A stretch of DNA of 62,609 nucleotides, the filler included, from Nemertoderma westbladi (taxonomy: Eukaryota > Animalia > Xenacoelomorpha), in assembly GCA_032718475.1 (NCBI GenBank). It is 4 parts of 4 records of this genome, joined end to end, with 100 filler letters (N's around TTAATTAATTAA, not from the genome) between each part and the next. Parts side by side here need not be neighbours in the genome. Positions count along the whole stretch, not along the records: positions 16,186 to 33,042 come from JAUCBJ010006789.1; 3 more parts are not named here. One strand, given 5' to 3'. The notes below the pieces were generated by a model that saw nothing but the letters and a program-made list of their open reading frames with translations, was not told where the DNA came from and searched no databases. Shown here in pieces: positions 8,001 to 54,569 of the stretch (position 1 is the stretch's first letter; each line of letters opens with the position of its first letter). The position numbers were made by a program, and so were the translations under genes.

Positions 8001-8599
8001 ACGAGACAACATTGACACGTATGTTGTTTTATTTTATTTGGCTGATGATGATTATTTTGGAATATATCGAAACGTACCATGGGATTATTTAGTTGTTCGT
8101 TAATATTGCTTTTCTTGATTAAACTACGTTACCCAACTGGAACCTCGGTTACTTCAAAACTCATAAAATAAATAACACGTTCTAGAATTTTGTGTATTTA
8201 TTAAATAGAATAAATGGCCTGCAGCGAACAATAATTCTTGCAATCTTTGAACGCATTTATCTCAGCTGTTTCTCAACGAAATTCAAACATTGTTACATAT
8301 TTGGAATCCTTGCAACGCAAGCTTTCTATTGATGTGAAAAAATTACGACTAAAGTGAAGAATGTCAATGATACAGAGGGTGCGATATCGCAAAAGACACT
8401 TTTTCAAAACGCTTTTGAATAAAATTTAAAGGCGAAATCGAAAATTCCGGCTTCATGGTAACAACCACGGTGAGTTGAACTAGTGGTGTTTCAAATTTCA
8501 AACAATATGATAAATATTTGTAGGAAAATATGGGGGGGGGGGGGGGGGGGTCCGTGTCATCAGAAAATGACACTATATTACGGAAAATGATATATATAA

Positions 8600-13155: not shown

Positions 13156-14203
13156 GACAGACAGGATCGGTATGCTGCATTGCAGCTGCATTTTTAAGAA
13201 TGCTGTGCCGGCTTGTCGACAAAATTGCGCCGCCACCACTAGCTATCACCCATGACATTTGCTAGATTATCTGCATCTTCAAGGCCAGTGTCCTTTAAGA
13301 TGCGTCTCAAGAAAGTCATGGGCTGTCCACCATGCTTATTCTCTCCATGAGGCTGCCAAAGTACGAGATTATGCACTGGCTGGTCCTCACGGCGAAAGAA
13401 ATGTCCTGCAAAGCGGAGGCGATTTTGTTCTAGTGTCGAGGTTGGGGGAACCAATGAGACACCTCCAATGTTATATAGTGTCTGGTTGCAGATGTGTGCA
13501 TTGCACTTGACATAGTGAACCCGGCGTAGCATTCTTGTGAATGTGCCATCCAGAGATTTGGTGTCCTCAGCAGTTAGAGCCCAGCATGGACTCCCATAGA
13601 GGAGTGCTGGAACTACTGCTGCTCTAAATAATCGGACCTTAAGTTTCCGATTAATTCTCGGTGACTTCCAAATCCTGGAAAGTCTATTCAAGGCTGCCCA
13701 TGCCTTTCCCTTACGTATTCGAAGGTTCTCACCTGACTTCTGGATCCATAATCCCAGGTAACAGAACTCGTCCACATGCTCAAGCATACCATCCTTTGAG
13801 CTCATGCTCATCCGGTCAGAGACTTGCTGAGGACTTTCAAAGTTAACTGTCAAAACTTTGGTCTTTCTGGAGTTAATAAAAAGACCAACACTAGAAGCAG
13901 CCTGTTCTAATGAGCTGAGGAGCCGTTGGGCTCCTTCTAGTGATTCTGAGAGTACTCCTAAGTCATCAGCAAAGTCTAGATCAGTTAGGTACTTGGCAGG
14001 ATTTCCTCGACTTCTGGAGCCAGTAGGTGGAGATATCATCACCCCATCATCATTATGATGATCTAAGGACATGCATAGAACATAGTCAACCACAATTATG
14101 AACATGAATGGTGCAAGTGTGTCTCCCTGGAGGACGCCCCATAACACTCCAAATGGTTCTGTGTCACCATCAACAGTAGACACAAATGTTGTCGAACCAT
14201 CGT
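13156..14203 (-). mobile_element. Second 5'-truncated copy of the same RTE family, with a 12-bp TSD
   Basis: Protein closely similar to the 8898-9887 copy; flanked by ATAAGAAGCCCC at 13144-13155 and 14204-14215. Confidence 0.92.
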
Positions 14204-14439
14204 ATAAGAAGCCCCACAACATCAACAGGTGCAAGAACATAGTGATTATCTTTGGCGCAATGAAACCTACCTAACTCACTATACCAGACACTCACCAAGG
14301 CAACTACGTATATGAGGGAAAATTTTCTTCATGGTGAAGATTTTGCTTCCAAGTTTAGAAACAGCAAATCAGATTGCCAATTTTAAGTCAGTATTGAATG
14401 GATATTATATTACTATAATATTGAAACATTATGGATAGA

Positions 14440-16085: not shown

Positions 16086-16185
16086 NNNNNNNNNNNNNNN
16101 NNNNNNNNNNNNNNNNNNNNNNNNNNNNNTTAATTAATTAANNNNNNNNNNNNNNNNNNNNNNNNNNNNNNNNNNNNNNNNNNNN
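16086..16185. other. Artificial contig linker
   Basis: 44 N + TTAATTAATTAA (stops in all six frames) + 44 N. Confidence 0.97.
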
Positions 16186-23746: not shown

Positions 23747-24650
23747 TTATAAAAAATTTAATATTGTTACCAAACGACCATACAAGTAATGGTGGAAATG
23801 TTGACAAGCCCAGTTTAGAACCCACAACTCCAAGAAGTGTGGTGCATCATATTGCTGTTGATCATTGTTTATATGTTTTGATGCATAAGCAATAATGAGG
23901 TGTAATTTGTTGTCAATGGTGCTAATCTGTGAAAGTATGGAGACAAAACCATTGCCACTTGCATCAGTTTCAAGTACAAATTCATTGTTGAAGTCCGGGT
24001 ATTGTAAAACCGGTGTAGTGATAAGTCGATTCTTTAGTTCCAAAAATCCTAACCGTGTTTAATTTGTCCAAACAAAAGGCGTAATTTTTTGGAGTAAATT
24101 ATATAAAGGTTTTGCGATTTTTCCGTAACCTTCAACAAAACGCCAGTAATAATACGTTAATCCAAGAAAGATTCACACTTCTTTTATATTTCGAGGTTCA
24201 GGGTAATTTATAACTTTTCGATATTATTGCTGGATCAGGACTAATCCCATTTCGTGAAATAACATGTGCCAGATATTTTATTTCTATCTGACTAAACTTA
24301 CATTTCTTTTGTTTCAACTTCAGATTTACTTTCTTAATCCGTTGTAAGACAAGTTTCAGTTGCTCTGTAAATGTAATTGATTTTACTAATATATCATCAA
24401 TAAATACATGGAATTGTTTATCTTCTTCAGTTGAAATGCCGTTCAATAATTTCTCCATAGTTGGTTGGAAAGTAGCTGGTGCGTTACATAATCCGAAGGA
24501 AAGTACTATGAATTCATAAAATCCAGAGCAACAATTAAATGTTGGTTTAGGAATGTCTCTATATGACATCGGGATCTGTCTGTAGCCGGTAGCCAAATCA
24601 AGTGTTGAGATATATTTCGAGGGCTGTAAATCATCTAATATATCATCAAA
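23747..24650 (-). mobile_element. Ty3/gypsy pol relic (RT and RNase H)
   Basis: YISTLDLATGYRQIPM, FGLCNAPATFQ, VFIDDILV, KCKF...YLAHVIS, PVLQYPDF...LETDASG...IAYASK...FHHYLYGR. Confidence 0.93.
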
Positions 24651-26560
24651 AAAGCAGCCGCTTGTAATGCATGTAACTGCTCTTTATCATTGAAACGACA
24701 CATGTATATACTCGCTGCACACAACTGCAATCACTACGATTTGCATTTTCTTTTGCAATTTGGATTTTGTAACAACAAATATTCCGATTGGGATATAAAG
24801 GTAATCCCTAAAAATTCTGAAAGGTATATTTCACTGAGTATACATATACCGGTGAAAGATCAAAAAACGAAAATCGAGCTACGTGTCTTAGACACATATC
24901 AATTTTTATCCTTTTCCCTAAGTACTTTAGTTGATTGTTCAACAAAGGATATAGACAGCGAGGATATAACATCAGTTCTACCAATTACTGAACAGCAAAT
25001 GAAATATTTTTATCCGAATTTAAATAATGCAACAATTAAACGAAAAGGTACATTTCCCTATGAGTATCTGACAGATTTAAATAAATTCAATGATTCGAAA
25101 TTACCATCAATAGACAAATTTTATAGTAAATTAACACAAAATACCTGTACACCCGAGGATTATAGTTTTGCCAATGCATCATGGAGTCAGTTTGACTGTT
25201 CAAATCTCAAGGATTATCTTTTAGCATACTTAAAACTCGATGTTTGTCTCCTCGCTGATATATTTGAGAACTTTAGGAGAGTATGTAGACAAAACTACGA
25301 ATTAGAAGTAGTTTACTATTGCAGTATCGCAGCTTTCACTTATGACCTGAAATACAATAAATGTAAGTTAGCATTAATAAAAGATTACCAAACATACAGA
25401 GATTTTGAAGCATCTATTAGAGGCGGGGTTTCATTCTGTCGAAAGCATTACATAGAATCAAATATACCCGAAACTGATATTATGATCCAAGCAAGGAAGC
25501 GTGTCATATTTTCAATATAGATTTTAATTCCTTGTATTCGGGTAATTTAAGTAAAAAGCTACCTGTTTCAGGTTTTGAACAACTCAACGTTACATATTTA
25601 GAGAATGCTACTCCTGAACAACTAATGAACTATTTAACAAATCTTGATACTGAAGGGGATATTGGGTTTTTCTTAATTTGCGATTTGAAATATCCCAAAG
25701 ATATTCATGATCATACATTAGAACTACCCTTAGCCCCAGAACATTTAAGTATAAATGAAACAATGCTTTCACCATATATGAAAGATCAATTTAATAATGT
25801 ATGTAAACAAAGAGGTACTAATAGCAAGTATAAGATGTGTGCACCAAAACTTATTTATGTTGACACAATTCAATAAAGAATTTTATCATGTAAATTTAAA
25901 ACTGTTAAAATTTTATATAAAACAAGGTTTAATTGTTACTAAGCTACATAAATTGTATTCTTTCCATCAAGACTTTGTATTTAAACCCTATATAGATTTT
26001 AATATTAATCAAAGACGTTTAGCAAAAACTTATATTGAAACAGCTGTTGCAAAGCTGCTGAATAACTCGTTATTTGGTAAAACGATAGAGAAGATACGAG
26101 ATCGCTGTGATTTCCGTATTGATAATAGCAATGAGAAATGCGATCAATTGGTGAAACATATAAATCACAAAAATTTCATGATTTATAACAATTCCTTATT
26201 GGGACACTTATTAGTAAAAGGCAGAGTGACACTAGATAAACCCATTTATGTAGGTAGTACTGTCTTGGATTTGGCAAAACTTGATATGTATGAGCTGTAC
26301 TATGATAGATTACTACCTATTGAGAAAGAATTAAACTGCCGAATTGAAATTGTAGCATCAGATACTGACTCACTCATCGGATGTAGTAAGACAAAAAGAC
26401 GAGTTGTGCTCACGAGAGATTAAGGAAGCTGTATGTTTACGTCCAAAGTTATATTCAATTTTGGAATGGAATGAAACGAATATACGACGGGCGAAAGGAA
26501 TAACAAGAGCTGTAGTGGATAAAAAAATTTGCCACGAAGATTATTCACACAATTTTATAT
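24651..26560 (+). mobile_element. Polinton/Maverick-type protein-primed DNA polymerase B relic (frameshifted)
   Basis: ACNACN, HNCNHYDLHF (ExoII), KGTFPYEY, YLKLDVCLLADIFENFR (ExoIII), IRGG, DFNSLYS, KLLNNSLFGKT, SDTDSL, LRPKLYS, AKGI, in order across four frames. Confidence 0.9.
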
Positions 26561-28311
26561 CTCCACTCTCTAAACTGACTCTAACTTCACTTTAGCTCCA
26601 CTCTAACTCCACTCTACTCTATCTTACTCTCGGACCCTTCTGTCCCCTTACTCTGCCTCTTACTGCTCGCTCCGCACATTTGAATTGCACCCGTATACTT
26701 TCCACATGCGTCAACACCTCCTCTCACTATCTCCCTGTACTCCTGTACTCAACCCTTACTCGTTTCGCTCCACTCAGTTCTGACGAGCCTCAACCTCCCC
26801 TTCCGTGCCGTCGCACTCAAGAAGTGTGATTTGTCTAGTGTCTCGTCCTCCTGTCATAGTCAATTGGTCCCCAGTCCCAGTAGCTAGTTGGAAAAGGATA
26901 CATGACTATAGTACTTACTTTGATTATATTGATTCTAATTATACTCTATTGATTATTACATACGTACATACTAATTGCACTTTTGTTAAATTTGCACTTA
27001 GGAGTTCGTATTACTTTGCATGTGGTGCCTTCCAGGCATCCCCACATCTCCCCCTCCAAGTCCTAGTTTGCTCCTCCTGTCTTCGGGAACCATCTCAGTT
27101 CCTTCCCTCTGTTGTTGTCCTGTCTCGGTCGCTTCCTTGTTGTCGTCACTTCTTTGTTCTTATCCTCTTTAAGGCTCCTCATTCTAGCCGTTACCTTCTT
27201 ACTGATCCCTGTGGTCAATTCCTTGGGCGCTGGTGTTATTAGCTCCCGGTATCGCTTCGTAGGTGGCCCTTCCTAATGCCCCTCCTGCTTCCCCCTAGTA
27301 GCGTCCCACAAGATCATCTTCATGGTCCGCGGCACATGCTCCGCCAGGAAATCTCTGAACTCTCCCCTGTTCTCTGGCACCCATCTATCTAAATACCTCT
27401 GCGTATTGATCACTCCACAATACGATGCCGCTGTCGCTACTTCTTGATAAGTAAACGGAAGTCTCCGCTTAATGATTTCCAGGTGGGCCTCCTGGTTAAT
27501 ATTGAAGAAACCCCACCGGAACTCCTGGGCCTTCATTTTCTGCCACGTCATGACACCGACGTCGGCCCACTCCTCGAAGATCTTAAACTTCTCCTCATCG
27601 TCCATCCAGTCGCACTGGCACCCATAGTGCCCCCGGAAGTTACACTTAGAAAACCGGTTGTGCAACTGCGGACACACCCCCATCCTATGACTCGACTCGC
27701 GGCAGTAGAGGCAACTCATCCCCTTCTGGAATCAATACAAGCAGCTCTTTTCCTGGTGAGTAAGCCTCCCGCAGTTATCGCAGCCGTGTATCGACACATC
27801 CCGCCGCAAGTCGTCTTTTGCCCTAAGTGGTCTCCTAGGTCTATGGAGCCATTGGTAAGCAAACTTCTGGACGTTAACGTCTCTGTCCATGTCTACGTCC
27901 TCGTCTCGCCTCGGCATCGTTTCTCCAAACACTATCCGTGGTGCCGTTCCCGGTTGCTCGCCCAACCTGATGGTGCTCCCTGCGAAATCCATCACCGGCT
28001 CCTCATACAGCCAGGCCCGCTTGCCGGGTTTATCCCAGAAGGCCCTCGCCCCGCTGGCCATCACCACTCTCCCGCCAACCCAGTCAGTGTCTGAATGGCC
28101 GATCCTCTCGATGGGTGGCATCTCCCCGAACTCGTCGTCATCCTCATCCCCCGCTGGGAGTGGATCCAATCCCGGTATCCCGGGAGACCCACTGTGTCCC
28201 TTCCCACCTTGGCTCTTGCCCGTAACTTTCCATCCTTCCAGTTCTCTCGGTCTCTTTCTCGCGAAATCGCCCTCAGAGCCCGCTGGCATGGGCATCGCGT
28301 GCAATCCTGAT

Positions 28312-30511
28312 TAGGGTTCAACAGAAGGCACTTTATGGGGCCGAACCGAACCGAACCGAAGCAGGGCCAACTTCGGGCCGAACCGAACCGAATCCGAACC
28401 GAAGTTCTGAAAGTTAGCAAGTTATGGTCATCAATTCGTATTTACGTCACTATACTGGCTGACTGGCAGTGGCAGACTGGTACCTATTTGGTCTGTGGAC
28501 TTAGCGAGAAAGCTATGATTAATTAAAAAAATAAGTACTACAAAATAAAATGGCAATATTTACATTAGGCCTACTGTACATTACTAACCTAAACTACTGC
28601 TGTACTGTATACTTACTTTATGCATGCACTTACTGTATATGCACCACATTTTCACCCGTAGTAAGCCGTACAGTAGTAACATCAAATTTAAAAAACCTCA
28701 CTAAAAGTACAGGTAGTCTTTCCGTCTTTGTAATACTATTTATATGAGATAGTAGGTATATTTGGTATTATGTATCAAAGTTATGATTAATTAAAAATTA
28801 GGTACCGGTACTACAAAGTAAAATTGCAATATTTAGCCTAACCTAAACTACTATATAATTAAGCTAATTTTGAAACTACCCAAGTAACCTGTAAACAATT
28901 ACAAAAATAATGCCATTTAAATGGAAGTTCAGTCCAAAATTAAGGGTGTAAACGTTAAGCAGACAGTGGTGCAGACAGTGGTGCAGATTGCAGACACCTG
29001 GTGCGGCCAGTGGCAGTGGTGCAGACACTGGTGCAGACAGTGGTGCAGCGTGCAGACAGTGGTGCAGCGTGCAGACACCTGGTGCGGACAGTGGTGCAGA
29101 CAGTGGTGCAGACAGTGGTGCAGACAGTGGTGCAGACAGTGGTGCAGACAGTGGTGCAGACAGTGGTGCAGACAGTGGTGCAGACAGTGGTGCAGACAGT
29201 GGTGCAGACAGTGGTGCAGACAGTGGTGCAGACAGTGGTGCAGACAGTGGTGCAGACAGTGGTGCAGACAGTGGTGCAGACAGTGGTGCAGACAGTGGTG
29301 CAGACAGTGGTGCAGACAGTGGTGCAGACAGTGGTGCAGACAGTGGTGCAGACAGTGGTGCAGACAGTGGTGCAGACAGTGGTGCAGACAGTGGTGCAGA
29401 CAGTGGTGCAAACAGTGGTGCAGACAGTGGTGCAGACAGTGGTGCAGACACTGGTGCAGACACTGGTGCAGACAGTGGTGCAGACATTGGTGCAGACAGA
29501 CATGCCGACACTGGTGCAGACAGTGGTTCAGCCACTTCTGCAGACAGTGGTGCAGACACTGGTGCAGACAGTGGTTCAGCCACTTGTGCAGACAGTGGTG
29601 CAGACACTGGTGCAGACAGTGGTGCAGACACCTGGTGTAAATACCAGAGTACCACAAAACACAATACCACCAGGCACTATTATATTATATTTTATCATAG
29701 ACTTTATTATCTACAAATATGCGAGTAACTACTGAAAGGTTCTACATGAAGTAGGGAGGACGTATTGTAGTACAAGTCGAGGTGCTTGCGGGTGAATGTG
29801 CCCTGATTACAAATAATTATGAGAGGTGTGTACGAAAGTAATTAAGTGCAGACTGCACCAGGTGCCTGCACCACTGTCTGCACCAGTGTCTGCACCACTG
29901 TCTGCCCCAGTGTCTGCACCACTGTCTGCACCAGTGTCTGCACCACTATCTGCACCACTGTCTGCACCACCGTCTGCACCACTGTCTGCACCACTGACTG
30001 CACCACTGTCTGCACCAGTGTCTGCACCACTGTCTGCACCAGTGTCTGCAACACTGTCTGCACCAGTGTCTGCAGCACTGTCTGCACCAAGCTGCCAAGT
30101 GTCTGCACCACTGTCTGCACCAGTGTCTGCACCAGTGTCTGCACCACTATCTGCACTACTGTCTGCACCAGTGCGTGCACCACTGTCTGCACCAGGTGTC
30201 TGCACCACTGTCTGCATCTCTGTCTGCACCACTGTCTGCATCTCTGTCTGCACCACTGTCTGCACCACTGTCTGCTCTGCACCAGTGTCTGCTTAACGTT
30301 TACACTCCAAAATTAATTAGTACAACCTGACAACGATGGACAGATTGATTAGTCTTACTGTCTTCTGATCTTAGCTCAATCAGTCAATGTAATTTTTGGA
30401 ATATTTAGCAAAGTTTGCTCCGGGCTTCTGCAGTATCAATTGCAGAAGCCGAACCGAACCGAAATTGCCAAACTTCGGCCCGAACCGAACCGAAGCTTCT
30501 GTTGAGCCCTA
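28312..30511. mobile_element. Non-autonomous hAT-like element (2.2 kb) with 8-bp TSD
   Basis: ATCCTGAT|TAGGGTTCAACAGAAG ... CTTCTGTTGAGCCCTA|ATCCTGAT; subterminal (CCGAA)n clusters at both ends. Confidence 0.92.
28958..30292. repeat. 12-bp minisatellite (GGTGCAGACAGT)n in two oppositely oriented arms
   Basis: Plus arm about 28958-29637, inverted arm about 29850-30292; both flanked by inverted GTGTAAACGTTAAGCAGACA. Confidence 0.95.
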
Positions 30512-32319
30512 ATCCTGATGTCGACTGTTTTGGCGATTCTTCCGTCCATCCTAGCTCCTCCCCCAGAGACTCGCCCGAGCTCCCTGATCCCCACCGTAAC
30601 TCGTCCAAGTTCTGGGCCTCGAACCCGTATTCCTCTCCTCTAGCCTACGCCTCTCTTTCATCTGCCTCCCTCCTTTCTCGTCTGGCGATTTCTTCCAATC
30701 GCTTCGCCTCTAGTCTATCTGCCTCTAGCTTCTCCCACCTCTGATATGGTGTATCCACCTCCCTGTATACTAGATATCGGCAGTTGTAGTATACTGACTC
30801 ACCCTTCAGCCCCGGGTGGTCTGCCAGACCCTCGAAGGCCACCTTGAAGGCTCTTCTGTAGTTCAGGGGTGATCCTGACAGCAGAAACGCCGTTGGCTAT
30901 CTTCCAATAACCACGGCCATGAATAGGTTTAGTAAACCTATCATTATCCAATCCTCCTGCAGGATATATCGCTTCTGATATATCTTTATCGTTCCTCTCC
31001 GGAATTGATACACCTCCTGTTTCCCTGGCCTCGCTCCCCACTTTAACGAGTTCGCTAACTCCGCTCCGTACACCTCCCTGAATTTACCCCAGTCCATCGG
31101 ATTGTGGCAGATGAGCCCCATGAGCTGGCCCATCGCCACTGCTCCGCAATGTCCTGTGTTCTCTACTAATACCAACCCGGCTGGCCCTGTCTTGGCCGTC
31201 TGCATGTCCAGGAGGTTGGTGGTCTCCGGTCCGACGATCCTCTCCACATCGTCGCGGATCGCCGATCCCACCTTCATCATCGACTTCTCCCTTACTAGAT
31301 TCTGCACCGCCCTTGGCAACTGGATCAACTCCGGCCCGCTCTTCTTCCCATACGTTCCCAGATCGAACAGGAATATGTCCCCATTTGGTGCAGCCAAATG
31401 TAGAAATATGGTTCTGGCCGACCCCGCCGACCCTCTTCTCGAACCCTCGTCGTCTTCCACGGTCCCTTCGTCGTCTAGGACCATGTATCCTTCCCTGCTG
31501 ACGGGCTCTACGAGTCTCTTCCAGTCCTTTCTCGGTGGTTCCCTCGGATACTTCGGTATCCCGAACTTCGCCTCGTCTCCCTTCACTACGTAGTTGACGT
31601 AGCGACGGTATCCCGTAGGTCCCGACCAGCCGCCTCTCGTGCACCTCCCTGAAATGGTCCAGCAGTGCTCGCGCCTTGTGACCCTTCTCTAACCGCTCGT
31701 AGTATCCCCTCGTCTTCTCCTCCGGATGCCTCTGGGTGAAATCTACTAGTATCTCCTTTCCACCTCTTTCCGCCTTTCTCTTCCTGACAAGTCTCTCCGC
31801 CATTACAAACTCTCCCAATCGCTCACCCACAAGGTGGTGCCTTACCAAGGCTCAAATTAGATGAGTGATGTAGTTAGGAAGGTCTGTGCGGTCCGATAAT
31901 GGCCTATCTCTCTCAGAACACTTGGTTTTGTGTTATATTTTACCTATGTACCCCCCAAAGTGCTAAATTTTCCTAAATTCCCGGCATCTGTCAGTTGCTT
32001 TTATTATGTTCTAGAATTTTCTGCCTACTGTTACCATAATTTATTGAATTTTATTTGTAATACTAATTTTAATTCTGCTATTGTGCTATTAATACTCATA
32101 ATGGGTTATTTTGTCTAAATAACCCCTATGGTTTGCATACAGTGTAGACTAGCTATTCCCTACTGTGCTAGTCTGCACCAGGTAACCTCCTGGCCCTGTA
32201 TCAAACATTCTGACCTACTCTACGGGCTGTGCATTACAGTATTCTGTCTCGTGCGGCCTACACAGTCTGTCCTGCTGTACCCACGTGCCCCCCTCTCACT
32301 TCTTACTACTAACCCTACT

Positions 32320-32950
32320 AACTCTGTAACTCTACTAACTCTCTAACTCTTACTAACTCTCTAACTCTTACTAACTCTCTAACTCTTACTAACTCTCTAA
32401 CTCTTACAAACTCTCTAACACTTACTCCACTAACGGTACTATGTACCCTATTACCCTCTAACTCTTACTAACGGTACTACATACCCTCTTACATTCTAAC
32501 TCTAACTCTACTAACTCTAACTCTACTAACTCTCTAACTCTTACTAACGGTACCATGTACCCTCTTACTCTCCAACTCTTACTAACGGTACTACGTACCC
32601 TCTTACTCTCTAACTCTTACTAACGGTACTATGTACCCTCTTACTCTCTAACTCTTACTAACGGTACTACATACCCTCTTACTCTCTAAATCTTACTAAT
32701 GGTACTACGTACCCTCTTACTCTACTAATTCTTACTAACGGAACTATGTACCCTCTTATTCTCTAACTAACTCCACTAACGGTACTGCGTACCCTCTTGC
32801 TCTCTAACTCTTACTAACGGTACTATGTACCCTCTTACTCTCTAACTCTTACTAACTTCTACTAACGGTACTGTGTACCCTCTTACTCTACTAACTCTTA
32901 CTAACTTCTATCTGCCTACTTACTTACTACTACGTACTATCTACTATTAC
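32320..32950. repeat. C/T-rich tandem repeat (18-bp unit expanding to a 38-bp unit)
   Basis: ACTCTCTAACTCTTACTA, then ACTCTCTAACTCTTACTAACGGTACTATGTACCCTCTT. Confidence 0.9.
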
Positions 32951-32953
32951 TTT

Positions 32954-33042
32954 TGTTCGCGCTTTCAGACCTTTGGCAGTTTAACCCGCCAAATTAGGAT
33001 GTCTTCTAGATATTAAATCGCTTTTTAGCCTATGACAAATAT
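32954..33042 (+). mobile_element. Probable LTR 5' end running into the contig end
   Basis: TGTTCGCGCTTTCAGACCTTTGGCAGTTTAACCCGCCAAATT matches the reverse complement of 1-46. Confidence 0.55.
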
Positions 33043-33142
33043 NNNNNNNNNNNNNNNNNNNNNNNNNNNNNNNNNNNNNNNNNNNNTTAATTAATTAANN
33101 NNNNNNNNNNNNNNNNNNNNNNNNNNNNNNNNNNNNNNNNNN
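33043..33142. other. Artificial contig linker
   Basis: 44 N + TTAATTAATTAA + 44 N. Confidence 0.97.
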
Positions 33143-33599
33143 GTTGGAAAGCCCACTTTGAAAAGCTCCTCAATAATGACAGGGTATTGCCTGATAACTT
33201 TATAGAAGTAAAAGTGTCTCTTATCATTCTCAATATTAAATCATCAACTAATGGAAATGAATAGGTTAACAGTGACCGGTTATTCTAACCAAAACAATAA
33301 ACTAAAGTGCACAAAACAGATTACTGTTTAATTTTGGAGGGTAATCAGCTGTTATTTGCATCAATTCTCCACAGGAGAGGGATGAATCTTGTTTGCGTCG
33401 AAATCGACCACCCCACCTCTGGTATTATATTTGTTGTGGGAAGATCCAAACGAATGGATTTCAACCAAACCTACTTCCACCTCTAATATACATGTACTGT
33501 ACTGTACATTGTACAGTACAGTACCGTAAGTATACATTTAACATTTTACTAATACAGAAACAACTAATTAATTAATTAACTAATAAAGAAGCAACAAAC

Positions 33600-34630
33600 T
33601 AATTCAGGAAGCCAAGAACAAACAACGTCTCCAGAAACAGCCCAAGGTGGAGGAGGTGAGTGGGAAAGTGTCCGACTGTTTCCCCCCTGAACGAGTTCAC
33701 ACGATTGAGCGGGCTGCTTCGGAACGGACCTCAGGCTGGCTTACGGTCGCCCCAGTCTCACGTCACCACTTTGACCTGTCTGCCAACGAATTCCAGGATG
33801 GTCTTTCCCTCCGATATGGACGTCCCCTGGTTGGTGCCCCTGCGAGGTGTGATGGTTGCAGGGAAGTATTTACCACAACCCACGCGCTCGATTGCAAGAA
33901 GGGTGGCCTGGTAACCCTCCGCCACAATGAGGTTCGGGACATCCAGGGCGACCTTTTCAGTCTCACCTTCCCTGAGTCATGCATAGTGCGGGTGCCGGTG
34001 ATTCGTGAGTCCGACGAGGAGCATGGAGTGGTGGGTCTACGTGCAGACCTTTAGGTAAGGGGCTATTGGCAGCCACAGAGACGGGCATTATTCGATGTTC
34101 GGGTCGTTGACCCCGATGCCCCCTCATACGTGTCGCGTCCGACAGCCTCCATACTGATTGATGCTCAGCATGAGAAGAAGACGAAATACCACGACGCCTG
34201 TGCCCTTCGTCAGGCCGATTTTACCCCTCTTGTGGTAACGGTGGATGGCGTGATTGCCCCTGAGTACTCCATGGCGTTAAAGAGGCTGGCCGACAGGTTA
34301 CCCACGAAATTGGCAAAGCCTTACAGCTGTGTCATGGGATGGGTGAGGGCACGCCTCTCCTTTGGGGTCCTGAGGTCAACTTGTGCCGGCTTAAGGGCGT
34401 CGTCGAGGACAAAGTGGCGTAGTATTGCGGCAGAGGATGGCGCTGGAATCCACTTAGGTTTACGTATCTGAGACTGTATGGTGTAATGCGTATATGCCAG
34501 ATTACATCTCTTTATTTGCTAAACATGTCATATTTTCTACAGTTATTGTATTTTCAACTCTTTGGTGTTATAGTATACGAGTCTAATATAATTCAACCAG
34601 AAAAGAAATACAGAAACCATAATAAATAAA
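33600..34630 (+). mobile_element. 3' end of a CRE-like non-LTR retrotransposon (zinc knuckle and restriction-like endonuclease)
   Basis: SGWLTVAP...LSLRYG, CDGC...HALDCKKGGLVTLRHNEVRD, RADL*VRG...FDVRV, EKKTKY, FTPLVVTVDG; one in-frame stop; A-rich end near 34620. Confidence 0.85.
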
Positions 34631-36044
34631 GGATTTTTCGCCTAATTAGTTCATATTCATTATCAGTAAGACGGATCCGGCACCCTTCTACAGTAATATT
34701 TCACTAAAGAGGCCTACTCTCACCATCAGCACAGCTGAGTAACGCAATTGTCAAGGCACAAATCAGGAGCAGGAAATCCCCAAACTATACATCCATTCAC
34801 ACACGTTTTGCACCATGCAAGATTGTTGCAATGTTTGGTACAAGGCAAGTCATTGTCGTTGTATCTAAACAATAAAAATAAATATAGAATCATAACATTA
34901 CGTAACTGCTGTACTCCGTGTAGGCCTACTTTAATGGGGGGGGGGGGGAGTAGCACCCCCAAATTGAACCTCACATTTTTGTGTCTATATACCCTAAAAT
35001 TGGGTGAAAATTATTTTTTGTGCTACTAAACATCGTGTGGGCTGTTTAAGAATAGCCAAACCAAATATTTTTAAAATTGGCTCCAAAATGGCTCTGAATG
35101 ACCAAAAGTGCCTTTTTGCGCCAAGGGCTATTTCTCCACCAAAATTTGTTGAAATTTGTCGAAATTTAGAATATAAGTTCAGAAGACCCCTGGATCCAAT
35201 AATTCTGAACAAATTTTGCCTCAAATGTTCTGGAGCCTTTTTAGAACAAAAAGGCAAAAAAAGGTCCTGTTTCGATCCTTTTTGATATAAAAAGGCACCA
35301 TGGCAATTCCAGCCAAATTTGTTCAGAAGAGTTATGGACAAAGGTATTTTGAACAAGTGTAAAAATTTCAGCTCAGTTTCATTTCAAACTCAGCTCAGTT
35401 AAAATTGGCGGAGAAAATCCTTTTTCATGAAAAAAAGTCATTCTGAGATAAAGGTGTTTAAAAGTTTAAGGAACAATTCAAACCTTCCCGCTATTTTAGA
35501 TACCATTTTTCTTTGTTCAACGATAACTTTGTCAAAAATGAATGAAATTCAACGAAATTTGTTTTTATTGTATAATTTGTATATTATATTATACTGTATA
35601 TATATCATGTTATATATTTGTATATTATATATTAGTATATAGTGTAATTTGTCTTTGTTATAACACAATGTAAACAGTATAAACTCAGATGCTAAATCAG
35701 CTGGAGGAGAGTATATGTAACGTTATACTATACCTGCACTCTCTACTGTATTACTCTACCTTTGACGAAAACACCCCAATGTCAACATCCCAAAACAAAT
35801 TAAGTAAATGATAGTTAGTCGCACTGCCGAAGTCATCATTCCAGGAATTTGCTTTTAAACCTATGGATGTTTATAGATATTATATAAGCATTATCAGTTA
35901 GTCACGACGAAAACCGTCTAAGACAGCTCCTTCCTCATTGTGCCCATTTTTTCATTTTTGGCGTATATGTTGCTTTTTTTGCATTATATTTAAATGGCCT
36001 ATTTTATTATTTAGTAATCATTTACAACCAATCATCAATAACTT

Positions 36045-39000
36045 AGAAACAATAGTTTTATACAGAGATGAAGAAGAAGGGGCTAGGTTTAATACCACAA
36101 TAAACAATAGAAACAGAGATGGAGAAGGGGCTAGGTTTAATACCATAAGAAACAATAGTTTTATACAGAGATGAAGAAGAAGGGGCTAGGTTTAATACCA
36201 TAAGAAACAATAGTTTTATACAGAGATGAAGAAGGGGCTAGGTTTAATACCACAAGAAACAATAGTTTTATACAGAGATGAAGAAGGGGGTAGGTTTAAT
36301 ACCACAAGAAACAATAGTTTTATACAGAGATGAAGAAGAAGGGGCTAGGTTTAATACCACAAGAAACAATAGTTTTATACAGAGATGAAGAAGAGGCTAG
36401 GTTTAATACCACAAGAAACAATAGTTTTATACAGAGATGAAGAAGAAGAGGCTAGATTTAATACCACAAGAAACAATAGTTTTATACAGAGATGAAGAAG
36501 GGGCTAGGTTTAATACCACAAGAAACAATAGTTTTATACAGAGATGAAGAAGGGGCTAGGTTTAATACCACAAGAAACAATAGTTTTATACAGAGATGAA
36601 GAAGGGGCTAGGTTTAATACCACAAGAAACAATAGTTTTATACAGAGATGAAGAAGGGGCTAGGTTTAATACCATAAGAAACAATAGTTTTATACAGAGA
36701 TGAAGAAGGGGCTAGGTTTAATACCACAAGAAACAATAGTTTTATACAGAGATGAAGAAGTGGCTAGGTTTAATACCATAAGAAACAATAGTTTTATACA
36801 GAGATGAAGAAGGGGCTAGGTTTAATACCACAAGAAACAATAGTTTTATACAGAGATGAAGAAGAGGCTAGGTTTAATACCACATAAACAATAGTTTTAT
36901 ACAGAGATGAAGAAGAAGGGGCTAGGTTTAATACCACATAAACAATAGTTTTATACAGAGATGAAGAAGGGGCTAGGTTTAATACCACAAGAAACAATAG
37001 TTTTATACAGAGATGAAGAAGGGCTGAAGGGGCTAGGTTTAATACCACAAGAAACAATAGTTTTATACAGAGATGAAGAAGGGGCTAGGTTTAATACCAC
37101 AAGAAACAATAGTTTTATACAAAGATGAAGAAGGGGGTAGGTTTAATACCACAAGAAACAATAGTTTTATACAGAGATGAAGAAGAAGGGGCTAGGTTTA
37201 ATACCACAAGAAACAATAGTTTTATACAGAGATGTAGAAGAGGCTAGGTTTAATACCACAAGAAACAATAGTTTTATACAGAGATGAAGAAGAAGAGGCT
37301 AGGTTTAATACCACAAGAAACAATAGTTTTATACAGAGATGAAGAAGGGGCTAGGTTTAATACCACAAGAAACAATAGTTTTATACAGAGATGAAGAAGG
37401 GGCTAGGTTTAATACCACAAGAAACAATAGTTTTATACAGAGATGAAGAAGGGGCTAGGTTTAATACCACAAGAAACAATAGTTTTATACAGAGATGAAG
37501 AAGGGGCTAGGTTTAATACCATAAGAAACAATAGTTTTATACAGAGATGAAGAAGGGGCTAGGTTTAATACCACAAGAAACAATAGTTTTATACAGAGAT
37601 GAAGAAGTGGCTAGGTTTAATACCATAAGAAACAATAGTTTTATACAGAGATGAAGAAGGGGCTAGGTTTAATACCACAAGAAACAATAGTTTTATACAG
37701 AGATGAAGAAGAGGCTAGGTTTAATACCACATAAACAATAGTTTTATACAGAGATGAAGAAGAAGGGGCTAGGTTTAATACCACATAAACAATAGTTTTA
37801 TACAGAGATGAAGAAGGGGCTAGGTTTAATACCACAAGAAACAATAGTTTTATACAGAGATGAAGAAGAAGGGGCTAGGTTTAATACCACAAGAAACAAT
37901 AGTTTTATACAGAGATGAAGAAGGGGCTAGGTTTAATACCACAAGAAACAATAGTTTTATACAGAGATGAAGAAGTGGCTAGGTTTAATACCATAAGAAA
38001 CAATAGTTTTATACAGAGATGAAGAAGGGGCTAGGTTTAATACCACAAGAAACAATAGTTTTATACAGAGATGAAGAAGAAGGGGCTAGGTTTAATACCA
38101 CAAGAAACAATAGTTTTATACAGAGATGGAGAAGGGGCTAGGTTTAATACCACATAAACAATAGTTTTATACAGAGATGAAGAAGGGGCTAGGTTTAATA
38201 CCACAAGAAACAATAGTTTTATACAGAGATGAAGAAGAAGGGGCTAGGTTTAATACCACAAGAAACAATAGTTTTATACAGAGATGGAGAAGGGGCTAGG
38301 TTTAATACCACATAAACAATAGTTTTATACAGAGATGAAGAAGGGGCTAGGTTTAATACCACAAGAAACAATAGTTTTATACAGAGATGAAGAAGTGGCT
38401 AGGTTTAATACCATAAGAAACAATAGTTTTATACAGAGATGGAGAAGGGGCTAGGTTTAATACCACAAGAAACAATAGTTTTATACAGAGATGAAGAAGA
38501 AGGGGCTAGGTTTAATACCACAAGAAACAATAGTTTTATACAGAGATGGAGAAGGGGCTAGGTTTAATACCACATAAACAATAGTTTTATACAGAGATGA
38601 AGAAGGGGCTAGGTTTAATACCACAAGAAACAATAGTTTTATACAGAGATGAAGAAGAAGGGGCTAGGTTTAATACCACAAGAAACAATAGTTTTATACA
38701 GAGATGGAGAAGGGGCTAGGTTTAATACCACATAAACAATAGTTTTATACAGAGATGAAGAAGGGGCTAGGTTTAATACCACAAGAAACAATAGTTTTAT
38801 ACAGAGATGAAGAAGAAGGGGCTAGGTTTAATACCACAAGAAACAATAGTTTTATACAGAGATGGAGAAGGGGCTAGGTTTAATACCACATAAACAATAG
38901 TTTTATACAGAGATGAAGAAGGGGCTAGGTTTAATACCACAAGAAACAATAGTTTTATACAGAGATGAAGAAGGGGGTAGGTTTAATACCACAAGAAACA

Positions 39001-42000
39001 ATAGTTTTATACAGAGATGAAGAAGAAGGGGCTACGTTTAATACCACAAGAAACAATAGTTTTATACAGAGATGAAGAAGAGGCTAGGTTTAATACCACA
39101 AGAAACAATAGTTTTATACAGAGATGAAGAAGGGGCTAGGTTTAATACCACAAGAAACAATAGTTTTATACAGAGATGAAGAAGGGGTTAGGTTTAATAT
39201 CACAAGAAACAATAGTTTTATACAGAGATGAAGAAGGGGCTAGGTTTAATTCACAAGAAACAATAGTTTTATACAGAGATGAAGAAGGGGCTAGGTTTAA
39301 TACCACAAGAAACAATAGTTTTATACAGAGATGTAGAAGGGGCTAGGTTTAATACCACAAGAAACAATAGTTTTATACAGAGATGAAGAAGGGGCTAGGT
39401 TTAATACCACAAGAAACAATAGTTTTATACAGAGATGTAGAAGGGGCTAGGTTTAAAAACACAAGAAACAATAGTTTTATATTATATACAGAGATGAAGA
39501 AGAAGCTAGGTTTAATACAACAAGAAACAATAGTTTTATACAGAGATGAAGAAGGGGCTAGGTTTAATACCATAAGAAACAATAGTTTTATACAGAGATG
39601 AAGAATTGGCTAGGTTTAATACCATAAGAAACAATAGTTTTATACAGAGATGAAGAAGAGGCTAGGTTTAATACCACAAGAAACAATAGTTTTATACAGA
39701 GATGAAGAATTGGCTAGGTTTAATACCACAAGAAACAATAGTTTTATACAGAGATGAAGAAGAGGCTAGGTTTAATACCACAAGAAACAATAGTTTTATA
39801 CAGAGATGAAGAATTGGCTAGGTTTAATACCACAAGAAACAATAGTTTTATACAGAGATGAAGAAGAGGCTAGGTTTAATACCACAAGAAACAATAGTTT
39901 TATACAGAGATGAAGAAGGGGCTAGGTTTAATACCACAAGAAACAATAGTTTTATACAGAGATGAAGAAGGGGCTAGGTTTAATACCACAAGAAACAATA
40001 GTTTTATACAGAGATGTAGAAGGGGCTAGGTTTAAAAACACAAGAAACAATAGTTTTATATTATATACAGAGATGAAGAAGAGGCTAGGTTTAATACCAC
40101 AAGAAACAATAGTTTTATACAGAGTTGAAGAAGGGGCTAGGTTTAATACCACAAGAAACAATAGTTTTATACAGAGTTGAAGAAGGGGCTAGGTTTAATA
40201 CCACAAGGAATACTAGTTTTATACAGAGATAAAGAAGAGGCTAGGTTTAAAACCACAAGAAACAATAGTTTTATACAGAGATGAAGAAGAGGCTAGGTTT
40301 AATACCACAAGAAACAATAGTTTTATACAGAGATGAAGAATTGGCTAGGTTTAATACCACAATAAACAATAGTTTTATACAGAGATGAAGAATTGTCTAG
40401 GTTTAATACCACACGAAACAATAGTTTTATACAGAGATGAAGAAGGGGCTAGGTTTAATACCACAAGAAACAATAGTTTTATACAGAGATGGAGAAGGGG
40501 CTAGGTTTAATACCATAAGAAACAATAGTTTTATACAGAGATGAAGAATTGGCTAGGTTTAATACCACAAGAAACAATAGTTTTATACAGAGATGAAGAA
40601 GGGGCTAGGTTTAATACCACAAGAAACAATAGTTTTATACAGAGATGAAGAAGGGGCTAGGTTTAATACCACAAGAAACAATAGTTTTATACAGAGATGT
40701 AGAAGAGGCTAGGTTTAATACCATAAGAAACAATAGTTTTATACAGAGTTGAAGAAGGGGCTAGGTTCAATACCACAAGAAACAATAGTTTTATACAGAG
40801 ATGGAGAAGGGGCTAGGTTTAATACCACAAGAAACAATAGTTTTATACAGAGATGAAGAAGGGGCTAGGTTTAATACCACAAGAAACAATAGTTTTATAC
40901 AGAGATGAAGAAGAGGCTAGGTTTAATACCACAAGAAACAATAGTTTTATACAGAGATGAAGAAGAAGGGGCTAGGTTTAATACCACAAGAAACAATAGT
41001 TTTATACAGAGATGAAGAAGAGGCTAGGTTTAATACCATAAGAAACAATAGTTTTATACAGAGATGAAGAAGGGGCTAGGTTTAATACCACAAGAAACAA
41101 TAGTTTTATACAGAGATGAAGAAGGGGCTAGGTTTAATACCACAAGAAACAATAGTTTTATACAGAGATGAAGAAGAAGGGGCTAGGTTTAATACCATAA
41201 GAAACAATAGTTTTATACAGAGATGAAGAAGGGGCTAGGTTTAATACCACAAGAAACAATAGTTTTATACAGAGATGAAGAAGGGGCTAGGTTTAATACC
41301 ACAAGAAACAATAGTTTTATACAGAGATGAAGAAGAAGGGGCTAGGTTTAATACCACAAGAAACAATAGTTTTATACAGAGATGTAGAAGGGGCTAGGTT
41401 TAAAAACACAAGAAACAATAGTTTTATATTATATACAGAGATGAAGAAGAAGCTAGGTTTAATACAACAAGAAACAATAGTTTTATACAGAGATGAAGAA
41501 GGGGCTAGGTTTAATACCATAAGAAACAATAGTTTTATACAGAGATGAAGAATTGGCTAGGTTTAATACCATAAGAAACAATAGTTTTATACAGAGATGA
41601 AGAAGAGGCTAGGTTTAATACCACATGAAACAATAGTTTTATACAGAGATGAAGAATTGGCTAGGTTTAATACCACAAGAAACAATAGTTTTATACAGAG
41701 ATGAAGAAGAGGCTAGGTTTAATACCACAAGAAACAATAGTTTTATACAGAGATGAAGAATTGGCTAGGTTTAATACCACAAGAAACAATAGTTTTATAC
41801 AGAGATGAAGAAGAGGCTAGGTTTAATACCACAAGAAACAATAGTTTTATACAGAGATGAAGAAGGGGCTAGGTTTAATACCACAAGAAACAATAGTTTT
41901 ATACAGAGATGAAGAAGGGGCTAGGTTTAATACCACAAGAAACAATAGTTTTATACAGAGATGTAGAAGGGGCTAGGTTTAAAAACACAAGAAACAATAG

Positions 42001-45000
42001 TTTTATATTATATACAGAGATGAAGAAGAGGCTAGGTTTAATACCACAAGAAACAATAGTTTTATACAGAGTTGAAGAAGGGGCTAGGTTTAATACCACA
42101 AGAAACAATAGTTTTATACAGAGTTGAAGAAGGGGCTAGGTTTAATACCACAAGGAACACTAGTTTTATACAGAGATAAAGAAGAGGCTAGGTTTAAAAC
42201 CACAAGAAACAATAGTTTTATACAGAGATGAAGAAGAGGCTAGGTTTAATACCACAAGAAACAATAGTTTTATACAGAGATGAAGAATTGGCTAGGTTTA
42301 ATACCACAATAAACAATAGTTTTATACAGAGATGAAGAATTGGCTAGGTTTAATACCACACGAAACAATAGTTTTATACAGAGATGAAGAAGGGGCTAGG
42401 TTTAATACCACAAGAAACAATAGTTTTATACAGAGATGGAGAAGGGGCTAGGTTTAATACCATAAGAAACAATAGTTTTATACAGAGATGAAGAATTGGC
42501 TAGGTTTAATACCACAAGAAACAATAGTTTTATACAGAGATGAAGAATGGGGCTAGGTTTAATACCACAAGAAACAATAGTTTTATACAGAGATGAAGAA
42601 GGGGCTAGGTTTAATACCACAAGAAACAATAGTTTTATACAGAGATGTAGAAGAGGCTAGGTTTAATACCATAAGAAACAATAGTTTTATACAGAGTTGA
42701 AGAAGGGGCTAGGTTCAATACCACAAGAAACAATAGTTTTATACAGAGATGGAGAAGGGGCTAGGTTTAATACCACAAGAAACAATAGTTTTATACAGAG
42801 ATGAAGAAGGGGCTAGGTTTAATACCACAAGAAACAATAGTTTTATACAGAGATGAAGAAGAGGCTAGGTTTAATACCACAAGAAACAATAGTTTTATAC
42901 AGAGATGAAGAAGAAGGGGCTAGGTTTAATACCACAAGAAACAATAGTTTTATACAGAGATGAAGAAGAGGCTAGGTTTAATACCATAAGAAACAATAGT
43001 TTTATACAGAGATGAAGAAGGGGCTAGGTTTAATACCACAAGAAACAATAGTTTTATACAGAGATGAAGAAGGGGCTAGGTTTAATACCACAAGAAACAA
43101 TAGTTTTATACAGAGATGAAGAAGAAGGGGCTAGGTTTAATACCATAAGAAACAATAGTTTTATACAGAGATGAAGAAGGGGCTAGGTTTAATACCACAA
43201 GAAACAATAGTTTTATACAGAGATGAAGAAGGGGCTAGGTTTAATACCACAAGAAACAATAGTTTTATACAGAGATGAAGAAGAAGGGGCTAGGTTTAAT
43301 ACCACAAGAAACAATAGTTTTATACAGAGATGAAGAAGAGGCTAGGTTTAATACCACAAGAAACAATAGTTTTATACAGAGATGAAGAAGGGGCTAGGTT
43401 TAATACCATAAGAAACAATAGTTTTATACAGAGATGAAGAAGGGGCTAGGTTTAATACCACAAGAAACAGTAGTTTTATACAGAGATGAAGAAGAAGGGG
43501 CTAGGTTTAATACCACAAGAAACAATAGTTTTATACAGAGATGAAGAAGGGGCTAGGTTTAATACCACAAGAAACAATAGTTTTATACAGAGATGAAGAA
43601 GAAGGGGCTAGGTTTAATACCATAAGAAACAATAGTTTTATACAGAGATGAAGAAGAGGCTAGGTTTAATACCACAAGAAACAATAGTTTTATACAGAGA
43701 TGAAGAATTGGCTAGGTTTAATACCACAAGAAACAATAGTTTTATACAGAGATGAAGAAGAGGCTAGGTTTAATACCACAAGAAACAATAGTTTTATACA
43801 GAGATGAAGAAGGGGCTAGGTTTAATACCACAAGAAACAATAGTTTTATACAGAGATGAAGAAGGGGCTAGGTTTAATACCACAAGAAACAATAGTTTTA
43901 TACAGAGATGTAGAAGGGGCTAGGTTTAAAAACACAAGAAACAATAGTTTTATATTATATACAGAGATGAAGAAGAGGCTAGGTTTAATACCACAAGAAA
44001 CAATAGTTTTATACAGAGATGAAGAATTGGCTAGGTTTAATACCACAAGAAACAATAGTTTTATACAGAGATGAAGAAGAGGCTAGGTTTAATACCACAA
44101 GAAACAATAGTTTTATACAGAGATGAAGAAGGGGCTAGGTTTAATACCACAAGAAACAATAGTTTTATACAGAGATGAAGAAGGGGCTAGGTTTAATACC
44201 ACAAGAAACAATAGTTTTATACAGAGATGTAGAAGGGGCTAGGTTTAAAAACACAAGAAACAATAGTTTTATATTATATACAGAGATGAAGAAGAGGCTA
44301 GGTTTAATACCACAAGAAACAATAGTTTTATACAGAGTTGAAGAAGGGGCTAGGTTTAATACCACAAGAAACAATAGTTTTATACAGAGTTGAAGAAGGG
44401 GCTAGGTTTAATACCACAAGGAACACTAGTTTTATACAGAGATAAAGAAGAGGCTAGGTTTAAAACCACAAGAAACAATAGTTTTATACAGAGATGAAGA
44501 AGAGGCTAGGTTTAATACCACAAGAAACAATAGTTTTATACAGAGATGAAGAATTGGCTAGGTTTAATACCACAATAAACAATAGTTTTATACAGAGATG
44601 AAGAATTGGCTAGGTTTAATACCACACGAAACAATAGTTTTATACAGAGATGAAGAAGGGGCTAGGTTTAATACCACAAGAAACAATAGTTTTATACAGA
44701 GATGGAGAAGGGGCTAGGTTTAATACCATAAGAAACAATAGTTTTATACAGAGATGAAGAATTGGCTAGGTTTAATACCACAAGAAACAATAGTTTTATA
44801 CAGAGATGAAGAATGGGGCTAGGTTTAATACCACAAGAAACAATAGTTTTATACAGAGATGAAGAAGGGGCTAGGTTTAATACCACAAGAAACAATAGTT
44901 TTATACAGAGATGTAGAAGAGGCTAGGTTTAATACCATAAGAAACAATAGTTTTATACAGAGTTGAAGAAGGGGCTAGGTTCAATACCACAAGAAACAAT

Positions 45001-54469: not shown

Positions 54470-54569
54470 NNNNNNNNNNNNNNNNNNNNNNNNNNNNNNN
54501 NNNNNNNNNNNNNTTAATTAATTAANNNNNNNNNNNNNNNNNNNNNNNNNNNNNNNNNNNNNNNNNNNN
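54470..54569. other. Artificial contig linker
   Basis: 44 N + TTAATTAATTAA + 44 N. Confidence 0.97.

What the first reader, a model, noticed from the sequence alone, without database searches (positions are those of the whole stretch)
27063..31803. Hidden ~840-codon gene fusing a DEDDy 3'-5' exonuclease to three CCHC zinc knuckles
Seen: deleting the hAT insertion plus one TSD joins ...PKQSTSG|LHAMPMP... in frame. From about 31610 to 27063 one frame is broken only by single stops (TAG at 30897, 30645 and 27273; TGA at 27732). One probable frameshift near 31610 links it to an ATG at 31803. The N-terminal part has ExoI (VLDDEG), LHLAA/LFDL, LP..V..L...KVG...DD (ExoII) and a shifted ExoIII (YILQED). 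The C-terminal part has three CX2CX4HX4C knuckles (first Cys of the third is Phe) and a basic tail. The region is GC-rich, purine-skewed on the sense strand and shows no apparent intron, unlike its AT-rich surroundings. Known: WRN-exo/EXD1/EXD2/MUT-7-Nibbler DEDDy enzymes trim nucleic acids including small RNAs; DEDDy ORFs occur as cargo in bdelloid rotifer and nematode retroelements; tandem CCHC knuckles typify Gag/ORF1 and Air1/2-type RNA binders. Inference: I do not recognise this fusion as a named family. It could be an exonuclease-bearing Gag/ORF1-like protein of an unclassified mobile element, or a lineage-specific RNA-trimming or anti-silencing factor.
Basis: partly seen in the sequence, partly recalled or inferred. 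Interest (0 to 1): 0.85.

Follow-up and report, generated by a model that had tools for sequence, protein, structure and literature searches.

The report
Transposon-borne exonuclease with zinc knuckles
This broken gene is one copy of a many-copy repeat family whose variation points to selection on the protein; it likely encodes an RNA-trimming nuclease joined to predicted RNA-gripping zinc knuckles, and it is probably the extra gene of a retrotransposon whose core genes are missing from this window.

Summary
A 2,200-bp TIR element with an 8-bp TSD splits a ~842-codon minus-strand frame (31803-27063) that has four internal stops. Public DNA contigs of organism A show a repeat family: 2,124-4,468 records at 80-100% identity per run and stretch in three runs. 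They show the empty insertion site, lack three of the four stops, and carry net 20 nt more at the frameshift. Family polymorphisms fall on third codon positions (14 of 18, p=1.4e-4); this copy's private changes do not (5 of 28). The N-terminal half aligns in register to DEDDy ExoI/ExoII (hhalign 28.4; 0 of 200 shuffles), though Pfam, folding and fold searches gave nothing. The knuckles match LIN28/nucleocapsid pairs. No relative was found in any protein or contig search. A purine tract plus TG right after the stop suggests the ORF3 slot of an LTR retrotransposon, but gag, pol and a second LTR are not in view. Known precedents: DEDDy ORF3s of bdelloid retroelements, and trypanosome TbRND (DEDD plus four CCHC). 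New variant of a known kind.

The parts
31612..31803 (-). N-terminal ~64 codons from the ATG; basic/charged, no family
   Evidence: 4 of 6 polymorphic sites at third positions of this frame; Pfam only sub-threshold hits
31595..31600 (-). Frameshift lesion of this copy: other copies are net 20 nt longer here and keep one frame
   Evidence: loose ends at 31594 and 31601 in runs X1-X3 (table 7)
30900..31499 (-). Likely DEDDy/DnaQ 3'-5' exonuclease domain: ExoI D-x-E (31475, 31469), ExoII D (31250), ExoIII Y-x3-E/D (30968-30953)
   Evidence: hhalign to 12 RNase D/NrnC/PolA domains, score 28.4, E 0.0013, 83 columns; 0 of 200 shuffles, best of 56 window ORFs; W-x-ARP and F-x8-Q-x2-Y-x3-E motifs
30520..30899 (-). 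Helical and E/R-rich (coiled-coil-like) linker with two stops in this copy
   Evidence: stop at 30647 not shared by other copies
28312..30511 (.). Non-autonomous hAT-type TIR element, 16-bp TIRs, internal 12-bp tandem arrays in both orientations, 8-bp TSD at 30512-30519 and 28304-28311
   Evidence: empty site in run X2; superfamily named from the 8-bp TSD by my own knowledge
27783..28311 (-). G/P/D/E-rich linker and a short unassigned region
   Evidence: no hit
27612..27782 (-). Three CCHC zinc knuckles (27782-27741, 27713-27672, 27653-27612; third with Phe for the first Cys in this copy)
   Evidence: zf-CCHC_4 E 0.0037, below the curated cut-off; LIN28 E 0.0025, all 18 PDB hits are LIN28 or retroviral nucleocapsid/Gag
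27063..27611 (-). Predicted helical region and basic tail, end stop 27065-27063
   Evidence: AlphaFold pLDDT 42; no fold match, best Z 3.7
27047..27057 (-). 11-nt polypurine tract followed by TG, 5 nt after the stop: PPT-like
   Evidence: only run of 10 or more purines followed by TG in 26550-33040 on this strand; a 712-nt contig of run X5 spans 26988-27699
26560..27046 (-). Non-coding tail, candidate 3' LTR, cut at about 26550 against a truncated PolB; no terminal CA seen
   Evidence: covered by many contigs, with deletion forms joining 26886 to 27496 in three runs
31804..32950 (-). Non-coding purine-rich leader with a 38-bp tandem array (32429-32856); cut by another short repeat at about 32954 and an N gap at 33043-33142
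   Evidence: contigs cover it up to the end of the laid stretch at 32300

Best explanation
This is a decayed copy of a multi-copy mobile gene that likely encodes a DEDDy 3'-5' exonuclease fused to three CCHC knuckles, and it probably sits in the accessory (ORF3) slot of an LTR retrotransposon whose gag-pol part is cut off here. Shown: one ORF, a large repeat family, third-position bias among family polymorphisms, private lesions and a later hAT-type insertion in this copy. Inferred: the knuckles grip single-stranded RNA, as in LIN28, nucleocapsid and TbRND, and feed its 3' end to a two-metal D-E-D-E/D site, so the protein trims RNA 3' ends. The most likely use (about 35%) is eroding small silencing RNAs or their precursors aimed at the element; trimming the element's own RNA, primer or cDNA ends (about 30%) and a binding-only pseudo-nuclease role (about 20%) are close alternatives.
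For: Repeat family: 2,222, 2,124 and 3,374 records laid on 30300-32300 and 2,725, 3,876 and 4,468 on 24300-28900 (the latter includes the PolB and gypsy flanks) in runs X1-X3; up to 56 contigs at one site; run X5 12 and 88 records. Selection: 14 of 18 polymorphic sites at third positions, p=1.4e-4, against 5 of 28 private sites. DEDDy: z about 7; the next best window ORF, 22.6, is the proofreading half of the neighbouring PolB, an internal positive control; ExoIII part 13.6, 1 of 150 shuffles. Knuckles. ORF3 slot: unique PPT-like tract plus TG directly after the stop; intronless; precedent in PMC5408684. Mechanistic model: TbRND zinc fingers hold RNA upstream of the 3' end (PMC7797062, passages).
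Against: No gag, RT, integrase, PBS or second LTR is linked to the ORF in this window; the tail has no terminal CA. The LTR reading rests on one 11-nt tract. Pfam, NCBIfam and PHROGs give no exonuclease hit; phmmer against PDB none; hmmsearch --max with my own profile ranks the query only 13th among 2,002 sequences; a global hhalign run failed to align. ExoIII has Glu where RNase D has Asp, or an Asp one residue late, with about 10 extra residues after the W-x-ARP motif. The selection count uses only rows that the tool displayed (40 of 380 and 40 of 518); 46 lay in the ORF and were counted, and three stop-codon rows were left out. No homologue in another species, so conservation of the catalytic residues is untested.
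Confidence: 0.5

Rival explanations
1. The same exonuclease-knuckle gene is cargo of another kind of mobile element (Penelope/Terminon-like, DIRS/Ngaro, a DNA transposon, or the neighbouring Maverick-like element).
For: No LTR pair is seen; DEDDy ORFs also ride on Athena/Terminon elements; a high-copy PolB lies tail-to-tail 500 bp away; purine-rich repeats flank both ends.
Against: No hammerhead or other fitting Rfam match at E up to 1 (one snoRNA match below cut-off); no TIR between leader and tail (0 inverted 9-mers); PolB is cut short at the junction and has 32% G+C against 52-56%; PPT plus TG fits LTR elements.
Confidence: 0.27
2. The ORF is the Gag/ORF1 itself, or the only gene of a non-autonomous element: the knuckles act as nucleocapsid and the exonuclease is an N-terminal add-on, so the element would be copied by another element's RT.
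For: Knuckle pair matches retroviral nucleocapsids; more than 1.1 kb of non-coding leader with tandem repeats precedes the ATG and no pol fragment lies in it; no pol follows the ORF.
Against: No capsid-like domain was detected; knuckles also match LIN28 better than NC; the leader does not repeat the tail, and the 5' side is cut by another repeat and a gap, so the absence of gag-pol is uninformative.
Confidence: 0.13
3. An expanded host gene family (TbRND-, EXD- or MUT-7-like RNA trimmer), of which this is a pseudogene.
For: Purifying selection; the domain order equals that of the host enzyme TbRND.
Against: Thousands of contig records at 80-99% identity with shared non-coding flanks and internal-deletion forms; no intron; no similarity to known host enzymes in PDB or among 1.84 billion representatives.
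Confidence: 0.06
4. The N-terminal half is not a DnaQ-fold domain; the motif match is chance.
For: Pfam, PDB and fold searches blank; weak HMMER rank.
Against: Four consecutive elements (ExoI strand, two strands, helix, ExoII) align in register over 83 columns and beat 200 of 200 shuffles; ExoIII-type motifs follow at the expected place.
Confidence: 0.12

Closest known systems
DEDDy ORF3 of bdelloid LTR retrotransposons Juno and Vesta, and of Athena/Terminon elements (PMC5408684, passages read; PMC6431247 passages)
   Same: DEDDy-type exonuclease carried as a family-specific accessory ORF of a mobile element; last catalytic set altered (DEED there); function undemonstrated.
   Different: Here about 850 aa with a coiled-coil-like linker and three CCHC knuckles ('zinc knuckle' and 'CCHC' do not occur in that paper's main text; a Cys-His-Cys motif is noted in Vesta2/5); very high copy; link to gag-pol not shown; sequence relationship not testable (those proteins were not available).
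TbRND, Trypanosoma brucei RNase D (PMC7797062, abstract and passages read; PDB 7c42, 7c45)
   Same: N-terminal DEDD 3'-5' exonuclease plus C-terminal tandem CCHC fingers; in TbRND the fingers hold RNA and the enzyme lowers guide-RNA levels.
   Different: TbRND is a host mitochondrial enzyme of about 375 aa with four fingers and a 28-residue linker; here three fingers, about 300 residues between the domains, mobile, no detectable sequence match. Likely convergent.
LIN28 / retroviral nucleocapsid knuckle pairs
   Same: CX2CX4HX4C pairs with similar spacing (E 0.0025 to 0.99).
   Different: No cold-shock or capsid domain; a third knuckle follows after a P-x2-H linker.
WRN-exo, EXD2, MUT-7/Nibbler, EXD1, Egalitarian
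   Same: Same DEDDy superfamily; my reference profile finds all of them in PDB.
   Different: No direct match of the query to any of them; which subfamily is nearest could not be tested, as no eukaryotic reference sequence was at hand.

Membership tests
DEDDy (DnaQ-like) 3'-5' exonuclease | ExoI D-x-E at the end of the first strand | tested here: met
   LDDE aligned to LDTE
DEDDy (DnaQ-like) 3'-5' exonuclease | ExoII Asp after strand 4 | tested here: met
   KVGSAIRDD aligned to KFLHAGSED, Asp in the same column
DEDDy (DnaQ-like) 3'-5' exonuclease | ExoIII Y-x3-D | tested here: inconclusive
   Y-x3-E followed by D; aromatic-x8-Q-x2-Y spacing as in 6 of 12 references; 1 of 150 shuffles reached the score
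DEDDy (DnaQ-like) 3'-5' exonuclease | RNase H-like fold / Pfam PF01612 match | tested here: inconclusive
   model pLDDT 34; fold searches uninformative; no Pfam hit
DEDDy (DnaQ-like) 3'-5' exonuclease | metal-dependent 3'-5' activity | not testable with these tools
   needs an assay
CCHC zinc knuckle proteins | CX2CX4HX4C motifs | tested here: met
   two perfect, one degenerate in this copy
LTR retrotransposon with accessory ORF3 | multi-copy dispersed repeat | tested here: met
   (many variants; dispersal inferred, contigs are short)
LTR retrotransposon with accessory ORF3 | polypurine tract next to a TG-started 3' LTR | tested here: met
   27057-27047 then TG, unique in 6.5 kb
LTR retrotransposon with accessory ORF3 | two LTRs (TG...CA), PBS, TSD | tested here: inconclusive
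   tail truncated near 26550, 5' side cut by a repeat and an N gap; no second copy of the tail in the window
LTR retrotransposon with accessory ORF3 | gag-pol upstream on the same strand | not testable with these tools
   no genome held; the gypsy RT at 23747-24649 is downstream, behind the PolB, and its copies continue differently at 24649
TbRND (kinetoplastid RNase D) orthologue | sequence homology and single-copy host gene | tested here: not met
   no PDB match at E up to 10; repeat family
Penelope-like Terminon cargo | hammerhead ribozyme, Athena RT nearby | tested here: inconclusive
   no hammerhead in 26000-33100; element ends not seen
Maverick/Polinton cargo | within TIR-bounded element with intact PolB | tested here: inconclusive
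   adjacent PolB is truncated at the junction and differs in composition

The most novel reading that the evidence does not exclude
A very successful mobile element of an unplaced class carries, perhaps as its only gene, an exonuclease that has converged on the TbRND design (DEDD domain plus tandem CCHC knuckles) and destroys the host's small silencing RNAs: a transposon-encoded, catalytic suppressor of the piRNA/siRNA defence that would explain the family's high copy number.
Probability: 0.2. Interest if true: 0.8.

Novelty: new variant of a known kind. Interest (0 to 1): 0.52.

Why it matters
DEDDy cargo of retroelements has been described for rotifers, with no function shown (PMC5408684). 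Here the cargo is in a very abundant family under apparent purifying selection and carries its own RNA-binding module, in the layout of a solved small-RNA-trimming enzyme (TbRND). That gives a concrete, testable model for what such cargo does, and a one-protein assay for whether transposons fight small-RNA silencing with a nuclease.

Tried and rejected
Homologue searches, all blank: word-index protein search for longer forms of each half and near-length forms of the knuckle part; phmmer of the exonuclease half over 1.84 billion representatives gave 1 hit, P0001, a repeat protein judged spurious; related loci in metagenome, viral and prokaryote genome contigs; plasmids by tblastn. The knuckle half was not run against the representatives library (cap). 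The ESM Atlas could not read the sequences. Single-sequence AlphaFold models were poor (pLDDT 34 and 42) and their fold searches uninformative; these say nothing against the fold. No RNA holder listed, so expression is open. No genome held. I first took TGT at 26382-26384 as an LTR end and rejected it: 26384-26545 is the C-terminal part of the PolB in another frame. The match of 32954-32993 to window 5-46 is another short repeat, not an end of this element. I could not obtain WRN/EXD2-like reference sequences, so the profile holds only bacterial RNase D, NrnC and PolA domains. A collection scan with a two-knuckle motif was not done, so distant relatives of the knuckle half remain unsearched by motif. 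Literature: no paper held all of DEDDy+exonuclease+zinc knuckle+retrotransposon, transposon+exonuclease domain+zinc knuckle+DnaQ (68), Terminons+DEDDy+zinc finger, or the BEL/Pao/nematode terms; some searches gave listings only, plus one passage of PMC6338049 naming DnaQ-like domains as known LTR accessories. Repbase/Dfam entries and subscription papers were not searchable and may hold this family; supplements were not read.
Full report
Observation. The window is repeat-rich eukaryotic DNA, likely animal (inferred from its RTE-like, gypsy, hAT-type and Maverick-like fragments); no genome is held. Four internal stops (first bases 30899, 30647, 27734, 27275), an end stop at 27065 and an out-of-frame ATG at 31803 give about 842 codons.

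It is a repeat family. Three DNA runs of organism A from two studies hold the stretch. Laid at 80% identity, runs X1-X3 gave 2,222, 2,124 and 3,374 contig records on 30300-32300, and 2,725, 3,876 and 4,468 on 24300-28900; run X5 of a third study gave 12 and 88. Summed depth is no copy number, but up to 56 distinct contigs cover single sites, all 30 bins are covered in X1-X3, and internal-deletion forms recur (26886 to 27496 in three runs). Six X2 contigs show the empty insertion site. Three of the four stops are not shared by the other copies; the fourth is not among the displayed rows. At 31594-31601 other copies are net 20 nt longer, which joins the ATG frame to the main frame. So the family has one ORF of about 850 codons and this copy decayed after insertion.

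Selection. Of the displayed difference rows (40 of 380 and 40 of 518), 46 lie in the ORF, apart from three stop-codon rows that I left out. Sites polymorphic in the family (share under 0.9 in X1): 14 of 18 at third positions, p=1.4e-4. Sites where this copy differs from nearly all others: 5 of 28. This is what a coding family with a neutrally decaying copy gives, and it supports the ATG frame too (4 of 6). The rows are the tool's best-supported subset, not a random one.

Exonuclease half. Pfam, NCBIfam, PHROGs and PDB sequence searches are blank; the single-sequence model has pLDDT 34 and gave no usable fold match. I built a 12-sequence alignment of bacterial RNase D, NrnC and PolA exonuclease domains, which finds WRN, EXD2, MUT-7, EXD1, Egalitarian and TbRND in PDB. 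hhalign places ExoI, two strands, a helix and ExoII in register over 83 columns (score 28.4, E 0.0013, probability 18.6). None of 200 shuffles reached it (mean 12.7, sd 2.2, max 20.5); it is the best of 56 window ORFs, ahead of the PolB proofreading half (22.6), while hmmsearch --max ranks it only 13th among 2,002 sequences. In the C-terminal part W-x-ARP aligns to the conserved pre-ExoIII motif (1 of 150 shuffles), followed by F-x8-Q-x2-Y-x3-E-D; a global alignment failed. I put DnaQ-fold membership at about 0.85 and catalytic activity at about 0.65.

Knuckle half. Two perfect CCHC motifs, the only ones in six frames outside the simple repeat, and a third with Phe; all 18 PDB hits are LIN28 or retroviral nucleocapsid/Gag (best E 0.0025). 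The helical region behind them has no match.

Element class. Directly after the stop lies an 11-nt purine tract followed by TG, the only such site in 6.5 kb; from my own knowledge this is how a PPT meets a 3' LTR. The tail runs about 490 bp and abuts a C-terminally truncated B-family polymerase at about 26550, without a terminal CA. The leader has no ORF over 75 codons, a 38-bp tandem array, no 12-mer shared with the tail, and ends at another short repeat and an N gap. No tRNA gene and no ribozyme were found. The ORF3 slot of a truncated LTR retrotransposon fits best, but gag-pol is not seen, so this step is inferred (about 0.5).

Relatives. None in 1.84 billion representatives (one spurious repeat protein), in the word-index searches or in viral, metagenome and prokaryote contigs (28, 29, 49, 50, 86). 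These collections hold few eukaryotic repeat proteins, so this shows an orphan in these libraries only.

Mechanism. Shown: anatomy, family, selection signal. Inferred: knuckles bind single-stranded RNA and present the 3' end to the DEDDy site, as the fingers of TbRND do (PMC7797062, passages and abstract). For a selfish element the likeliest gain is loss of small silencing RNAs; processing of its own RNA, primer or cDNA, or a binding-only role as in EXD1/Maelstrom (named in PMC5408684), remain open.

Comparison and novelty. It works like TbRND but is no orthologue; it likely belongs with the DEDDy accessory ORFs of retroelements (PMC5408684, PMC6431247, PMC5718144, PMC6338049; passages only). 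My searches found no paper that holds such cargo with CCHC knuckles, within the library's limits. Unchecked notes of this scan report Rrp6-like exonuclease plus knuckle ORF3s in gypsy elements of other genomes; no look-alike of this sequence is indexed. They are leads, not support, and they suggest that the theme recurs. Verdict: real, new variant of a known kind, interest 0.52.

Noticed in passing
window 24653-26545 (+): Fragmented Maverick/Polinton-type protein-primed PolB (exonuclease part, motifs DFNSLY, KLLNNSLFGK, DTDSL; names from my own knowledge), frameshifted, with a deletion near 26384 and a truncated C-terminus; very many contigs in all runs, far deeper in X2 than in X3 of the same sample. 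No relative in viral contigs.
   Followed up: partly
window 23747-24649 (-): Decayed gypsy-type RT and RNase H (Pfam RVT_1 E 2e-22, RT_RNaseH_2 E 8e-22), abutting the PolB at 24649/24653.
   Followed up: partly
window 28312-30511: The hAT-type insert holds two 12-bp arrays in opposite orientation (57.6 and 35.3 copies), forming a long internal inverted repeat, and GGTTC subterminal repeats.
   Followed up: no
window 35960-51000: About 15 kb satellite of 52/55-bp units with higher-order structure and strong strand skew.
   Followed up: no
window 33587-34471 (+): C-terminal fragment of a non-LTR element with a zinc-finger and restriction-like endonuclease look (CRE-like, recalled); one stop; no Pfam hit.
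   Followed up: no
window 8524-9918 (+), 13163-14270 (-), 55920-56319, 57337-59822 (-), 7362-8033 (-): Several RTE-like non-LTR fragments (by eye); two form a 1,043-nt inverted pair at 95%.
   Followed up: no
window 263-1027 (+): Open 254-codon frame with a Thr-rich stalk and a hydrophobic C-terminus, like a membrane-anchored surface protein; no Pfam family.
   Followed up: partly
window 5-46 and 32954-32993: Two copies (88%) of a short repeat end in opposite orientation; one marks the 5' cut of the element studied.
   Followed up: partly
window 16086-16185, 33043-33142, 54470-54569: Three N gaps, each with a 12-nt insert in the middle.
   Followed up: no
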